This document shows positions 6,001-9,000 of a DNA stretch of 44,529 nucleotides, piece by piece. Source of the DNA: a virus (Duplodnaviria > Heunggongvirae > Uroviricota > Caudoviricetes); the IMG/VR virus record IMGVR_UViG_2537562195_000005, one strand, 5' to 3'. Position numbers: made by a program. The stretch's first letter is position 1. Each line of letters starts with the position of its first letter.

Positions 6001-9000
6001 AGTACTGCGTTCGCTAGCCATTTTGCTGCTCCTCATCATATCGACCCTGCAAGGTCGGTTGGTTTCTCCACAAAACAGAGAAGAACACCTGCGGTGGCAG
6101 CCGCCCGGATGGATTGGGTTATGAGCCCGTCGCCCGGTGATGCTCTTCTCTGTTTTGTAAAAAGAGCGGTACCAGCCGGAAGCAAGTGTACAAACTGGTA
6201 CCGCCAAAGCAGTGGCTGTTGTGGTGGGGTTGTCACTCAGGCGTATGGTCAACCTGACAATCCGGTGTCCTCAACGGGGAAAGAGTAACCCCGCCATACT
6301 TACCGCCGCGCCATTTCGCGGATTACCACAACGCTGAGAGCACTTAGCCAGTTACGGCACCACACTTTGTCGTGGTTCCATAAATGCCCTCATCGTTGCA
6401 CCCTGGTCTCTTCCCAGGTGTCAAACCGAACCGCCACGCTGGTTAGGCGTCTTATCAGCATCATCATTGACTTGCACATTCCGGCTACCTGGTTTGTTTG
6501 CCCGAGCAAGGAGTGGATTGTCCCCTTTAACGTCCCCAGACCGCTAACGACGCATGTGCCATACGCCGTGTTACAACCAAATTTTGTTAGGACCTTGTTT
6601 GTTGGTCTGGAAAGAAAGATAAAATGAAATTGCGCATTATGCAAGTGTTTTGTTGCGAGATGCGCAATATGATGGGTGATGAAAAGCCACCTTCTGGTGG
6701 CTAATTGATGAGGAGGTCGGGGTTAATTGTGTCGCTTAAGGGTTTGTGACTGACTGATTAAGACCTTCCCAAAGACCATAAACCGGTGTTCGTTTTCGCT
6801 GGTAATTCCCCATTCACGGTAAATCTGGTTATCAGAAATCACCAGTAGTTTGTCAGGTATCATTTGCAGTCGTTTGACATAAATTTTATCATCAAAACCA
6901 AACACATAGATACCATCCCCATCAAACTGATTGATACTGATATCAACGAAGATGAGATCTCCTGGCTCAATGGTTGGACACATACTGTCCCCACGAACGT
7001 TGATAACTTTAATGTGATTGGCTGGTCGTCCTCCAAACATCGATACAGCATTATCAGTTATGTATTCAATGGCATGAATCACATCAATGACATCACCGCC
7101 CTGGATAAGGCCATTTCCCGCACTGGCACTGACATCCAGCATTTCAATACGGAATACATCCTTCACCTGCGCAACATCCTCACCAGTACTGTTTTTACAT
7201 ACAGTATTACTTTTGAAGTCTGAGGTAAAGAGATCTGCAATATCAACACCTAAGCTCCTGGCAATATTACTCAGGGCTTGTTCAGTGAATTGTTTCTGCT
7301 TACCTGTTTCCAGGCGTGAGATATTCGCCGCATCCACTCCTATTGCTTCAGCGAGATCGGCGATTTTCATGTTCTTCGCCTGGCGAAGTTGTCTGACTCG
7401 ATTTCCTATGTTCATGCGTTTATTACATTTCTTTATTGCGCGTTAAGCAAATCAACTTGCGCAAAATATTTGCGTGAAATAATATGCTTATCACGCAATA
7501 TGTGGAGGTTATATGCAATCACCATTACGAAATGTGCGTAAGGCGCACGGATTTACTTTGCAGCATGTTGCTGCGGGTGTTCAGGTTAATCCAGCGACGC
7601 TGAGTCGTATTGAGAGACTGGAACAAATTCCATCTATCGATCTGGCAGAGCGTCTGGCCAATTTTTTTAAGGGAGAAATCAGCGAAATGCAGATTCTCTA
7701 TCCTGCTCGCTTTCAATCTAGTCAAAACCGGAATGAGTTAAAACCACAGGAAAAGGAGGTAAGCCGTGGGTAAGCATCACTGGAAAGTGGAAAAACAGCC
7801 TGAGTGGTACGTGAAAGCGGTCAGAAAAACTATCGCGGCGTTGCCGGGTGGTTACGCTGAAGCAGCTGAGTGGCTGGATGTAACAGAGAACGCTTTATTC
7901 AATCGCCTTCGTGCCGATGGCGATCAGATTTTCCCGCTGGGATGGGCAATGATTTTACAGCGCGCGGCTGGCACTCACTACATTGCGGATGCTGTCGCAC
8001 AGTCTGCTGATGGGGTGTTTGTATCGCTTCCTGACATTGAGGAAGTAGAGAACGCCGATATAAACCAGCGCCTGCTGGAAGTCATCGAACAGATCGGGAG
8101 TTACTCAAAGCAGATTCGTTCGGCAATCGAAGATGGGGTAGTGGAGCCACACGAGCAGACAGCAATGAATGATGAGTTGTATCTGTCAATTTCGAAGCTC
8201 CAGGAGCATGCGGCACTGGTCTACAAAATTTTCTGCGCTCCAGAAAAGAGTGACGCCCGCGAGTGTGCAGCTCCGGGCGTCGTGGCGTTTTGTGTCTGTG
8301 GAGAAACTAACGCATGAACAGTTTAACGGCAAATAACCGTTTGTCGCAACAGCTGGTGGTCAGTGTCGCTGCACACCTGTTGTTACGGCATGAATGCAGA
8401 TTACCAAATCACCTGGCTGTAAGTAACCACAGAGAACTTTACCTGACTGTGGGGGGCGAGTTGTGCAGGAACTTAACCGCTGGTTTCGTGACGGAAGAGG
8501 ACTTTATGTTCATGTTATTCGTTGGGAGCCAGAAACACAGCGCGTTATCTATCTTCGCAAAGACTACCCGCATGAGTGCTTTAGTCCTTTGTGGAAATTC
8601 AGGCGTGATTTTGTTGAGTGTGAAGGACCAGCAGCATATTGATTCTGCAATTCCGGGACGTTACACTGTACCGGCACCTTATAAAGCGGGTGCCGGGATT
8701 GGCGTCCTGAAATTGATTACTGAGCATAACCGCGCTCATGCGGTTTTTTCGTGTCATGAGCATTGCTACGCCCAAATTATGGTGGGGCGTACAGGGCCGA
8801 CTTCGGTCGGGCCGGGTTCGGTAGTCTCCGGTAACGCCAACCCTGTACGTCTCACCACCTCTGTGATTGGCGTCCCATGTGGTGAGTTTTCTAAAAAACT
8901 GACTACCGGGGCTGTCACTATGACTACTCTCCCAACCCTCTCTCAACCTGAAATTGCCATCGTTGATGGTCAGGCTGTTACATCTTCTTTGGCTGTTGCT

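What the first reader, a model, noticed from the sequence alone, without database searches (positions are those of the whole stretch)
8318..8919. 600-bp low-coding stretch in the early-right operon with a terminator and a compact multi-stem RNA; no N-like gene anywhere
The long ORF upstream of rha has a non-protein-like N-terminal 200 codons. The region instead holds a possible 59-aa GTG-start gene (8463-8642), a stable hairpin (8671-8696), an intrinsic terminator (8728-8749) and a roughly 78-nt element with a 15-bp outer stem and a UUCG-capped inner hairpin (8781-8858). No Arg-rich N-like antiterminator ORF is present on either side of the repressor, and the presumed leftward leader (6022-6722) is also long and structured. 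This is inference only, but it raises the possibility of RNA-based (put-like) antitermination or an sRNA.
Basis: inference. Interest (0 to 1): 0.5.

Follow-up and report, generated by a model that had tools for sequence, protein, structure and literature searches.

The report
Known IsrK–C4 antisense-RNA antirepressor switch
The "low-coding" stretch is a well-known phage RNA switch: a small decoy RNA (IsrK) and an antisense RNA (C4) in front of an antirepressor-type gene (rha), plus a small real gene. It is ordinary, not a new antitermination RNA.

Summary

- **The RNAs.** Window 8775-8862 is a full-length C4 antisense RNA (Rfam RF01695, 82.3 bits, cut-off 45). The hairpin plus terminator at 8674-8750 is a full-length IsrK sRNA (RF01394, 59.3 bits, cut-off 50).
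- **The pairing.** C4's two exposed segments, a' (8817-8826) and b' (8834-8840), are complementary to b1/a1 inside IsrK. They are also complementary to b2/a2 in the rha leader, where a2 abuts the Shine-Dalgarno of rha (ATG 8920).
- **The evidence.** Across 24 diverged loci the stems and all four intermolecular pairings co-vary (91-93% paired against 35-52% for slid controls; 0/500 shuffles reach the observed covariation score, percentage paired or number of double-sided changes).
- **The known system.** This is the P1/P7 immI, P4 immunity and Gifsy-1 isrK-orf45-anrP type of cassette, here placed before a Rha-family gene.
- **The small gene.** The 59-aa GTG ORF (8463-8642) is a real DUF4222 gene.
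- **The annotation.** The 387-aa "Rha" in public records is an over-extension.
- **The put idea.** A covariance model of HK022/HK639 put RNAs finds nothing significant in the window. No N-like ORF was seen.
- **Side observations.** An uncharacterised conserved RNA-like element lies in the leftward leader, and the ymfM reading frame is in question.

The parts
8314..8462 (+). Unassigned spacer after the cII-like gene ymfL. It is the start of the annotated long ORF (ymfM frame), whose ATG 8314 overlaps the ymfL stop as ATGA.
   Evidence: There is no ORF in the DUF4222 frame and no significant fold (z = 0.2). Variable columns are not concentrated at codon position 3 of the 8314 frame (9/18/9 at positions 1/2/3). 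One relative has a 1-nt deletion. Only the first ~30 nt are shared with K-12 e14.
8463..8642 (+). DUF4222 small-protein gene (59 aa, GTG start, G-run Shine-Dalgarno at 8451-8456).
   Evidence: Pfam PF13973, E 9.4e-14; phrog_1343, E 2.6e-36. Against K-12 e14, amino-acid identity is 61% in this frame and 31% in the long-ORF frame. Nucleotide differences fall 21/15/38 at codon positions 1/2/3. Distant loci carry stops in the long-ORF frame.
8639..8667 (+). Candidate isrK promoter: -35 TTGATT (8639-8644), 17-nt spacer, -10 TACACT (8662-8667), start near 8674.
   Evidence: Read from the sequence. It scores 8 of 12, below the 9 of 12 required by the scan, so it is not in that list. The -35 TTGAT(T/A) and -10 TA(C/T)A(C/G)T are conserved at the same spacing in diverged loci. 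The Gifsy-1 isrK promoter is experimentally shown (PMC4825925). Its function here is inferred.
8674..8750 (+). IsrK sRNA: hairpin 1 (8674-8693), hairpin 2 (8694-8709) presenting b1 (8699-8705) in its loop, a1 (8715-8724), and an intrinsic terminator (8728-8745 plus U-run).
   Evidence: Rfam RF01394, 59.3 bits (cut-off 50), model positions 1-77 of 77. The terminator scan finds it. Hairpin 1 is 100% paired, with 5 of 6 pairs showing double-sided changes. b1/b' is 99.4% paired and a1/a' 94.2% paired.
8775..8862 (+). C4 antisense RNA: outer stem 8780-8796 with 8841-8857, UUCG hairpin 8797-8810, hairpin 2 at 8811-8832 with a' (8817-8826) in its loop, and single-stranded b' (8834-8840).
   Evidence: Rfam RF01695, 82.3 bits (cut-off 45), E 8.9e-15, model positions 1-87 of 87. 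Fold z = -6.0. The outer stem is 99.3% paired, with 12 of 17 pairs showing double-sided changes. The UUCG hairpin has 5 of 5.
8779..8919 (+). Reading frame from the C4-internal AUG (the equivalent of Gifsy-1 orf45), in frame with rha and without a stop. It could give a 232-aa long Rha isoform or provide translational coupling.
   Evidence: It aligns with the first AUG of Gifsy-1 orf45 (PMC4825925). The frame has 0 stops in 17 of 20 loci, against means of ~2.3 and ~1.4 in the other two frames. The AUG-to-ATG distance is a multiple of 3 (135, 138 or 141 nt) in those of the 17 whose C4 AUG is in register with rha; in L011 (140 nt) and L019 (137 nt) the frame is stop-free but the C4 AUG is out of register. 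Translation here is inferred.
8863..8919 (+). rha leader with the C4 target: b2 (8867-8873), GUGGUGAG (8879-8886, complementary to the 3' strand of the C4 outer stem), a2 (8901-8910) overlapping the Shine-Dalgarno GGGG (8908-8911).
   Evidence: Exact complementarity was found. In one search, a'/a2 has 8 of 8 core pairs with double-sided changes and b'/b2 has 6 of 7. The per-locus table shows a1 matching the reverse complement of a' and a2, and b1 matching the reverse complement of b' and b2, in nearly every locus. The alternative hairpin is 95% paired.
8920..9477 (+). rha: Rha-family (antirepressor-type) regulator, the gene controlled by the cassette.
   Evidence: Pfam Phage_pRha, E 2.5e-26. 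PHROG matches to Rha-like regulators and anti-repressor Ant families. Antirepressor activity was not tested.

Best explanation
The stretch is a secondary-immunity RNA cassette of the P1 immI, P4 and Gifsy-1 isrK type.

1. Transcription comes from the isrK promoter, and presumably also from PR through cro, ymfL and the DUF4222 gene.
2. Most of it stops at the intrinsic terminator, releasing the 77-nt IsrK RNA.
3. Read-through transcripts carry the C4 RNA and the rha leader.
4. C4, excised from the transcript or still in cis, pairs through b' and a' with b2 and a2. Because a2 overlaps the rha Shine-Dalgarno, Rha is not translated. By polarity, downstream transcription may also be reduced.
5. IsrK carries the same b/a sequences (b1, a1). 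It competes for C4 or opens the cis structure. This allows ribosomes to start at the C4-internal AUG (8779) and read into rha.
6. Rha, an antirepressor-type protein, would then push the prophage towards lytic growth.
7. The a and b sequences differ between phages and change together, giving each cassette its own specificity.

**Shown here:** family membership, structure, complementarity, covariation, conserved geometry and the real coding frame.
**Inferred from P1/P7, P4 and Gifsy-1:** processing, translational block, activation by IsrK and antirepressor activity.
For: - **Rfam.** Full-length hits above the gathering scores for C4 and IsrK.
- **Conserved geometry.** The same isrK-C4-rha arrangement, with the same spacing, is found in about 19 loci from Citrobacter, Edwardsiella, Serratia, Pantoea, Erwinia, Aeromonas, Vibrio and Endozoicomonas.
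- **Complementarity.** a'/a2 is 10 bp, a'/a1 10 bp, b'/b1 7 bp and b'/b2 7 bp.
- **Covariation.**
  - 90.9% and 92.7% of cells paired, against 35-52% for slid controls.
  - 0/500 shuffles reach the observed value on every measure. The same holds except for the count of pairs with a double-sided change (10/500).
  - About 18 different a specificities and 10 different b specificities, each matched within its locus.
- **Gifsy-1.** The window aligns base for base with the Gifsy-1 isrK-orf45 region, with identical b sequences. Published experiments there show IsrK activating orf45-anrP translation (PMC4825925).
- **Literature.** The c4 + isrK pair next to BRO/Rha genes has been reported in APSE phages (PMC7313666).
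- **Stop depletion.** The rha frame from the C4 AUG is depleted of stops.
Against: - No expression data exist for this phage.
- Rha is not homologous to Gifsy-1 AnrP (BLASTP E 0.84). Its antirepressor role is assumed from family annotation.
- The cassette sits inside the early-right operon. In Gifsy-1 it lies after Q, and in P1 it is in a separate operon. Its output here could therefore differ.
- The Rfam c4-a1b1 model is below its cut-off in the window (24.1 against 46.7 bits).
- One relative (L108) has a' matching a1 but not a2.
Confidence: 0.82

Rival explanations
1. **P4-style gate.** The cassette's main output is transcription termination rather than translation of rha alone. C4 pairing with the b/a sites on nascent transcripts would enforce termination at or after the IsrK terminator. 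This would keep the downstream replication genes (9695 onwards) silent in a lysogen and against superinfecting relatives. This reading overlaps with the best explanation and does not exclude it.
For: - The cassette lies between the cII-like gene and rha plus the replication genes, so PR transcripts must cross the IsrK terminator.
- The Gifsy-1 authors call P4 seqA a structural homologue of IsrK. They describe CI RNA pairing with the complementary seqA and seqC, upstream and downstream of CI, to cause premature termination (PMC4825925).
- SfV and Ayreon records label the homologous stretch 'immunity region'.
Against: - No termination data exist.
- a2 overlaps the Shine-Dalgarno, which points first to translational control.
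- No Rho-dependent site was identified.
- In Gifsy-1, co-expressing STnc1160 with IsrK made growth arrest more pronounced. This did not fit the suggestion that STnc1160 acts as a termination factor.
Confidence: 0.15
2. **Protein-coding.** The whole 8314-9477 ORF would be a real 387-aa protein with an N-terminal 'Ash'-type domain, as RefSeq annotates it. The RNA matches would then be incidental.
For: - The frame is open for 609 nt upstream of the rha ATG in the window and in L004.
- PGAP calls a 387-aa Rha protein.
- Pfam Phage_ASH matches residues 117-198 of the translation (E 4.7e-9).
- PHROG 821 spans both parts.
Against: - The ORF would run through a promoter, an intrinsic terminator and two RNA genes with strong compensatory covariation.
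- It overlaps the DUF4222 gene, which is the frame under purifying selection.
- The frame is broken by stops or shifts in L018, L020 and L054. L025 and L027 have an in-frame stop within 24-30 nt upstream of rha. In L011 and L019 the C4 AUG is out of register with rha.
- One close relative has a 1-nt deletion.
- Other records start the gene at different places.
- Long upstream open frames in other loci look like antisense shadows of opposite-strand genes.
- Only the part from AUG 8779 may be translated.
Confidence: 0.04
3. **put-like antiterminator.** The multi-stem RNA would act like HK022 put: it would bind RNA polymerase and carry it through the terminator in a phage that lacks N.
For: - No Arg-rich N-like ORF was found near the immunity region.
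- A terminator sits in the early-right operon.
- A weak two-stem match to the put model lies at 8317-8389 (8.9 bits, E 1.4).
Against: - The put model finds nothing significant in the window, while it recovers HK022 putR at E 1.5e-7.
- The immunity regions share no similarity with HK022.
- The element lies downstream of the terminator it would have to suppress.
- It is a full-length C4 family member, and its loops co-vary with antisense targets.
- The fold of 8318-8470 is not significant.
Confidence: 0.02

Closest known systems
Gifsy-1 isrK locus (isrK - orf45/STnc1160 - anrP), Salmonella; Hershko-Shalev et al. 2016, PMC4825925
   Same: - Same order and spacing: promoter, IsrK with its terminator, a C4-like RNA containing the orf45 AUG, a b2/a2 leader, and an antirepressor-type gene.
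- The b1, b' and b2 sequences are identical to the window's.
- IsrK scores above the Rfam cut-off.
   Different: - The downstream protein is unrelated (AnrP against Rha, BLASTP E 0.84).
- The Gifsy-1 cassette lies downstream of Q; here it is between the cII-like gene and the replication genes.
- orf45 ends in an ATGA overlap with anrP, whereas here the same frame runs directly into rha.
- The a specificity differs.
P1/P7 immI: c4 antisense RNA - icd - ant1/ant2 (Citron & Schuster 1990; own knowledge, with PMC8201110 and PMC7313666 for the outline)
   Same: - The C4 RNA family (RF01695).
- a'/b' loops complementary to one target site upstream of c4 and one downstream.
- The downstream target covers a ribosome-binding site of an antirepressor operon.
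- Specificity variants give heteroimmunity.
- A long and a short in-frame antirepressor form (Ant1/Ant2) is a possible parallel to the 8779 and 8920 starts.
   Different: - P1 has icd between c4 and ant. Here a DUF4222 gene lies upstream and rha follows directly.
- As far as I recall, P1 has no IsrK-type terminator after a1/b1.
- P1 immI is a separate operon, not part of the early-right operon.
- The covarying target order here is b then a.
Satellite phage P4 immunity (seqA - CI RNA/seqB - seqC)
   Same: - Three-part layout: an upstream target, a processed antisense RNA and a downstream target, all on one transcript.
- It lies upstream of replication genes.
- The Gifsy-1 authors cite P4 seqA as a structural homologue of IsrK.
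   Different: - P4's output is premature transcription termination of the replication operon.
- No antirepressor gene is involved.
- This was not tested here.
HK022 / HK639 put antiterminator RNAs
   Same: A cis-encoded structured phage RNA in an early operon of a lambdoid phage without an obvious N gene.
   Different: - There is no sequence or structure match.
- put has two stems of about 70 nt just after the promoter and acts on RNA polymerase.
- This element has three helices, lies 1.3 kb from PR, and has antisense targets.

Membership tests
C4 antisense RNA (Rfam RF01695) | Match to the family covariance model at or above the gathering score | tested here: met
   82.3 bits against 45, E 8.9e-15, model positions 1-87 of 87.
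C4 antisense RNA (Rfam RF01695) | Long outer stem enclosing two hairpins, supported by compensatory changes | tested here: met
   The outer stem is 99.3% paired, with 12 of 17 pairs changed on both sides. Hairpin 1 has 5 of 5. Slid controls reach 36-48%.
C4 antisense RNA (Rfam RF01695) | Two exposed segments (a', b') complementary to a target upstream and a target downstream on the same transcript | tested here: met
   Pairings of 7-10 bp. The triples co-vary in 24 loci.
C4 antisense RNA (Rfam RF01695) | Downstream target covers the ribosome-binding site of the controlled antirepressor operon | tested here: met
   a2 (8901-8910) overlaps the GGGG at 8908-8911, which lies 8 nt before ATG 8920. 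The same GAGG position is seen in relatives.
C4 antisense RNA (Rfam RF01695) | Stable ~77-nt RNA excised by RNase P that represses antirepressor synthesis | not testable with these tools
   Needs Northern blots, an RNase P mutant and reporter assays.
IsrK sRNA (Rfam RF01394) | Match to the family covariance model at or above the gathering score | tested here: met
   59.3 bits against 50, model positions 1-77 of 77. Relatives score 53-79 bits.
IsrK sRNA (Rfam RF01394) | Own promoter and an intrinsic terminator that allows partial read-through into orf45 and the antirepressor gene | tested here: inconclusive
   The terminator is found. A promoter-like TTGATT-17-TACACT is conserved. Read-through and promoter activity were not measurable.
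IsrK sRNA (Rfam RF01394) | Genomic context as in Gifsy-1 (downstream of antQ, upstream of anrP) | tested here: not met
   Here the cassette follows a cII-like gene and a DUF4222 gene and precedes rha. AnrP and Rha are not homologous. The RNA cassette itself is collinear.
IsrK sRNA (Rfam RF01394) | Hfq binding and trans-activation of translation | not testable with these tools
   Experimental.
HK022-type put antiterminator RNA | Similarity in sequence and structure to known put RNAs | tested here: not met
   Model R1 gives putL 100.8 bits and putR 35.8 bits. The window's best is 11.1 bits (E 0.39). There is nothing at 8781-8858 or 6368-6578.
HK022-type put antiterminator RNA | Two-stem RNA of about 70 nt placed between the promoter and the terminators it suppresses | tested here: not met
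   The element has three helices and lies downstream of the terminator at 8728-8750.
HK022-type put antiterminator RNA | Terminator read-through that depends on the beta' zinc-binding domain | not testable with these tools
   Experimental.
DUF4222 (Pfam PF13973) small protein | Profile match above the cut-off and a substitution pattern typical of coding sequence | tested here: met
   51.1 bits against 27. There is an excess of third-position changes, and amino-acid identity is higher than in the overlapping frame.
Long Rha protein with an N-terminal Phage_ASH domain (Pfam PF10554), as annotated | Reading frame conserved and under protein-level selection across relatives | tested here: not met
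   The frame is broken in several loci. The overlapped DUF4222 frame is the conserved one. The Pfam match coincides exactly with IsrK, C4 and the targets (nt 8662-8907).
Lambda N-type antiterminator | Small ORF with an Arg-rich motif next to PL or PR | tested here: not met
   The Arg-rich scan gave only out-of-frame ORFs inside late genes. This is a crude test, and N proteins are very diverse.

The most novel reading that the evidence does not exclude
In this apparently N-less lambdoid phage, early transcription could be governed entirely by RNAs.

- **Rightward.** The isrK-C4 cassette, placed between the cII-like gene and the replication genes, would act P4-style as an RNA immunity gate for the whole early-right operon.
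- **Leftward.** The uncharacterised, highly conserved ~210-nt element at the 5' end of the leftward leader would be a new kind of cis-acting RNA that carries polymerase through that leader.
  - It lies at 6368-6578 on the minus strand.
  - It is followed by a terminator-like hairpin at 6160-6205.
  - It is shared with the P1 ban leader and with epsilon15-like phages, next to tRNA genes.
Probability: 0.1. Interest if true: 0.65.

Novelty: already known. Interest (0 to 1): 0.22.

Why it matters
For the finding itself, the value is in annotation.
- Public records of this phage and of hundreds of E. coli prophages fuse two RNA genes and a promoter/terminator into a 387-aa "Rha" protein. None of the three records inspected annotates the RNAs.
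- One Pfam family (Phage_ASH) appears to model the conceptual translation of this RNA cassette.
- Recognising the cassette tells us that Rha synthesis, and possibly expression of the downstream replication genes, is under antisense-RNA control. The control has phage-specific "addresses", which bears on induction of Stx-type prophages.
- It does not open a new mechanism.

The side observations could matter more than the finding: the reading frame of the e14 division inhibitor ymfM, and an unclassified conserved RNA-like element in PL leaders.

Tried and rejected
- **put homology.** I built a covariance model from five putL sequences (HK022 type, HK639 type and three viral-contig variants). I searched the window with filters off. 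The controls were found and the window was negative.
- **BLAST against HK022.** Comparing the window's immunity region with HK022's gave only a 28-nt match inside the repressor gene.
- **Resemblance to putL stem I.** The leftward-leader element shares ACGGCG...CAUGCGUCG with putL stem I. I judged this insufficient: there is no stem II equivalent and no model hit.
- **Rfam at permissive thresholds** on 5900-9100 and 6280-6620 gave nothing beyond C4, IsrK and c4-a1b1.
- **Arg-rich N-like ORF scan** gave nothing credible.
- **Structure in 8318-8470** was not significant.
- **Long ORF as a real protein** was rejected.
- **tRNA-like genes in the leaders** were not found.
- **Literature search** for the invariant 22-mer of the leftward element gave no paper.
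- **The P1 genome paper** was not available, so P1 details rest on my own knowledge.
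Full report
**What is in the window**

The finding lies in the immunity region of a lambdoid prophage.
- The 602-nt stretch is 100% identical to Escherichia phage 1720a-02 (KF030445).
- The surrounding 2.1 kb is 100% identical to several E. coli chromosomes. Part of it matches in 3080 of 5426 complete E. coli genomes.
- The layout is as follows:

| Coordinates | Strand | Feature |
|---|---|---|
| 6723-7415 | minus | CI-type repressor |
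| 7513-7773 | plus | cro-like gene |
| 7766-8317 | plus | cII-like gene (ymfL, Pfam Phage_CP76) |
| 8318-8919 | plus | the stretch in question |
| 8920-9477 | plus | Rha-family gene |
| 9695 onwards | plus | replication genes |

**Checking the observation**

- The long ORF 8314-9477 exists. Its Rha domain starts only after ATG 8920.
- The terminator at 8728-8745 is found by the scan.
- The compact element folds at -47.7 kcal/mol with z = -6.0.

**Identity of the RNAs**

A scan of the whole window against Rfam at gathering thresholds gives two full-length matches inside the finding.
- C4 antisense RNA (RF01695) at 8775-8862: 82.3 bits, cut-off 45, E 8.9e-15.
- IsrK (RF01394) at 8674-8750: 59.3 bits, cut-off 50.
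- A permissive scan adds a sub-threshold match to the "a1, b1 targets of C4" model at 8661-8713 (24.1 bits).

The "78-nt element" is C4.

**Antisense logic in the sequence**

C4 has two exposed segments.

| Segment | Coordinates | Sequence | Location in C4 |
|---|---|---|---|
| a' | 8817-8826 | UUCGGUAGUC | loop of its second hairpin |
| b' | 8834-8840 | ACGCCAA | single-stranded |

- b' is perfectly complementary to UUGGCGU twice. One copy is b1 (8699-8705), in the loop of the second IsrK hairpin. The other is b2 (8867-8873), in the rha leader.
- a' pairs over 10 bp with a2 (8901-8910, GACUACCGGG). The 3' end of a2 is the rha Shine-Dalgarno (GGGG 8908-8911; ATG 8920).
- a' also pairs over 10 bp, with three G-U pairs, with a1 (8715-8724) in IsrK.
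- The target order b then a is what antiparallel pairing with C4 (a' then b') requires.
- The 3' strand of the C4 outer stem (8851-8858) can alternatively pair with GUGGUGAG (8879-8886). That would present b2 in a loop.

**Comparative evidence**

Rha homologues were fetched from one genome per species.
- About 19 loci have IsrK and C4 at the same distances upstream of the rha start. They come from Citrobacter, Edwardsiella, Serratia, Pantoea, Izhakiella, Symbiopectobacterium, Erwinia, Aeromonas, Vibrio, Endozoicomonas and Phlomobacter.
- Rha loci of Desulfovibrio, Bilophila and Thauera lack them.

An alignment of 24 distinct cassettes was scored against the proposed pairs.

| Measure | C4/IsrK stems plus a'/a2 and b'/b2 | a'/a1, b'/b1 and the alternative hairpin |
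|---|---|---|
| Cells forming standard pairs | 90.9% | 92.7% |
| Same, 3' partner slid by 1-3 columns | 36-48% | 35-52% |
| Pairs changed on both sides | 41 of 57 | 16 of 25 |
| Shuffles reaching the observed covariation score | 0 of 500 | 0 of 500 |

The per-locus table is the clearest evidence.
- In nearly every locus a1 matches the reverse complement of a', which matches a2.
- Likewise b1 matches the reverse complement of b', which matches b2.
- There are about 18 different a sequences and about 10 different b sequences.
- Even among E. coli prophages whose Rha proteins are 84-100% identical, several specificity types occur.

This is the signature of a working antisense system with exchangeable specificities.

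**Relation to the characterised systems**

*Gifsy-1.* The window aligns base for base with the Gifsy-1 region between Q and STM2616 (anrP). The b1, b' and b2 sequences are identical and the a sequences differ.
- In Gifsy-1 the short IsrK acts in trans on the read-through transcript. It switches on translation of orf45, which is coupled to the antirepressor-like AnrP.
- A stable RNA (STnc1160) is processed from the orf45 region.
- The authors cite P4 seqA as a structural homologue of IsrK, and they describe CI pairing with seqA and seqC (PMC4825925).
- The first AUG of orf45 is the conserved AUG inside the 5' strand of the C4 outer stem (window 8779).

*P1 and P7.* C4 represses the ant operon through a2/b2 (outline in PMC8201110 and PMC7313666; details from my own knowledge of Citron & Schuster 1990).

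*APSE phages.* The c4 + isrK pair next to BRO and Rha genes has already been reported in APSE phages.

*How the window differs.*
- It is placed inside the early-right operon.
- Rha is unrelated to AnrP (BLASTP E 0.84).
- The orf45 frame runs straight into rha.

**Coding questions**

*The 59-aa ORF is a real gene.*
- It matches DUF4222.
- Compared with the e14 copy in K-12 it is 61% identical as protein, against 31% for the overlapping long-ORF frame.
- 38 of 74 nucleotide differences are at third positions.
- Distant loci have stops in the long-ORF frame.

*The first 145 nt (8318-8462) remain unassigned.* They show no coding or structural signal.

*The 387-aa "Rha" of RefSeq is therefore an over-extension.* Other records start the gene elsewhere.

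*The Pfam Phage_ASH match.* It covers residues 117-198 of the conceptual translation, which is nt 8662-8907. That is exactly IsrK, C4 and the targets.

*The frame from AUG 8779 may be translated.*
- It has no stop before rha in 17 of 20 loci. The other two frames average about 2.3 and 1.4 stops.
- Where the C4 AUG is in register with rha, the AUG-to-ATG distance stays a multiple of three (135, 138 or 141 nt). In L011 (140 nt) and L019 (137 nt) the frame is stop-free but the AUG is out of register.
- Together with the Gifsy-1 data, this suggests that this part is translated. It would give either coupling or a 232-aa long form of Rha. This is inference.

**The put hypothesis**

- A covariance model of five putL RNAs recovered HK022 putL (100.8 bits) and putR (35.8 bits). 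The sequences came from HK022, HK639 and viral contigs.
- In the window its best match was 11.1 bits (E 0.39), inside late genes.
- It scored 8.9 bits (E 1.4) at 8317-8389.
- It found nothing at the C4 element or in the leftward leader.
- The immunity regions share no similarity with HK022.
- No Arg-rich N-like ORF was seen near the immunity region. That scan is a crude test.

How PR transcripts pass the IsrK terminator is not known. In Gifsy-1 a fraction of transcripts simply reads through it.

**The leftward leader (outside the finding's coordinates but named in it)**

6022-6722 has no ORF and folds far better than shuffles (z = -4.6). Its content, read on the minus strand, is:
- a repressor-gene terminator;
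- operator-like repeats and a promoter-like site near 6600-6670;
- a ~210-nt element (6368-6578);
- a terminator-like hairpin with a U-run (6160-6205);
- a 15-bp-stem hairpin (6070-6159);
- the yfdP-like gene (ATG 6022).

The 210-nt element has these properties.
- It is nearly invariant in more than 118 viral contigs, and the wider 271-nt stretch around it (6320-6590) matches in 1834 of 5426 E. coli genomes. It is unannotated in every record listed.
- It occurs just after PL-like operators of different immunity types.
- In P1 it lies directly after tRNA-Met and before ban. In epsilon15/phiV10-like phages it lies directly before tRNA-Arg.
- It has no Rfam match.
- Only its 3' hairpin and one other stem show compensatory changes.
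- It does not match the put model.

I could not assign it.

**Verdict**

The finding is a correct observation of a known system. It is of low interest in itself, but useful for correcting annotation.

Noticed in passing
window 6368-6578 (minus strand); also L140 2506-2715 (P1), L141 1994-2202 (phiV10): A ~210-nt, nearly invariant, structured and unannotated element sits at the 5' end of the presumed PL transcript. It is shared with P1 (between tRNA-Met and ban), D6, SJ46 and epsilon15/phiV10-like phages (just before tRNA-Arg), and the wider 6320-6590 stretch matches in 1834 of 5426 E. coli genomes. It has no Rfam family, no put-model hit and no literature hit for its invariant 22-mer. Only 6 of 39 predicted pairs show compensatory changes.
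   Followed up: partly
window 6070-6205 (minus strand): Downstream of that element, the leftward leader has a terminator-like hairpin (GCGGUACCAG-N19-CUGGUACCGC followed by UCUUUUU, 6160-6205). Next comes a long hairpin with a perfect 15-bp stem (6070-6084 with 6145-6159), just before the yfdP-like start at 6022. So the left operon also begins with a terminator that must be passed.
   Followed up: partly
window 8314-8642; L138 3323-3661 (K-12 e14 ymfM): The annotated e14 'cell division inhibitor YmfM' (112 aa) is in the frame of the window's spurious long ORF. Embedded in another frame is the conserved DUF4222 ORF. Amino-acid identity is 61% in the DUF4222 frame and 31% in the ymfM frame, and changes are biased to third positions. 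The published ymfM clone contains both frames, so the SfiC division inhibitor may really be the DUF4222 protein. This parallels icd in P1 immI.
   Followed up: partly
window 8662-8907 (+): Pfam Phage_ASH (PF10554) and several PHROG 'transcriptional regulator' families match the conceptual translation of IsrK, C4 and their targets. These protein families appear to be built at least partly on translated RNA genes.
   Followed up: partly
L015 1799-1993 and 2758-2946; L054 2504-2582; L018 161-248: Some loci carry two isrK-C4 cassettes in tandem, or an extra C4 copy, within 1-3 kb. This suggests several antirepressor modules side by side.
   Followed up: no
L013 2867-2953; L017 2862-2952: In Providencia and Phlomobacter Rha loci, the position of C4 is occupied by a match to sRNA-Xcc1 (RF02221) instead. 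It may be a related RNA filed under another family.
   Followed up: no
L108 (viral contig), cassette upstream of rha: In this relative, a' matches a1 but not a2 (a2 is of the L107 type). It looks like a recombinant cassette in which C4 would no longer fully cover the rha ribosome-binding site.
   Followed up: no
window 15858-16106 and 17515-17729 (+): Three tRNA genes and a full-length STnc100 sRNA match (159 bits) lie further right in the window, in what should be the late-regulatory region.
   Followed up: no
window 8317-8389 (+): Two adjacent stem-loops lie directly after the cII-like gene. They give the only put-model match inside the finding (8.9 bits, E 1.4). The Citrobacter relative L004 keeps a hairpin there with a different sequence. 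This is not significant as it stands.
   Followed up: partly
L038 167-228 (Desulfovibrio falkowii Rha locus): A type II hammerhead ribozyme match (61 bits) lies about 2.8 kb upstream of an unrelated Rha homologue.
   Followed up: no
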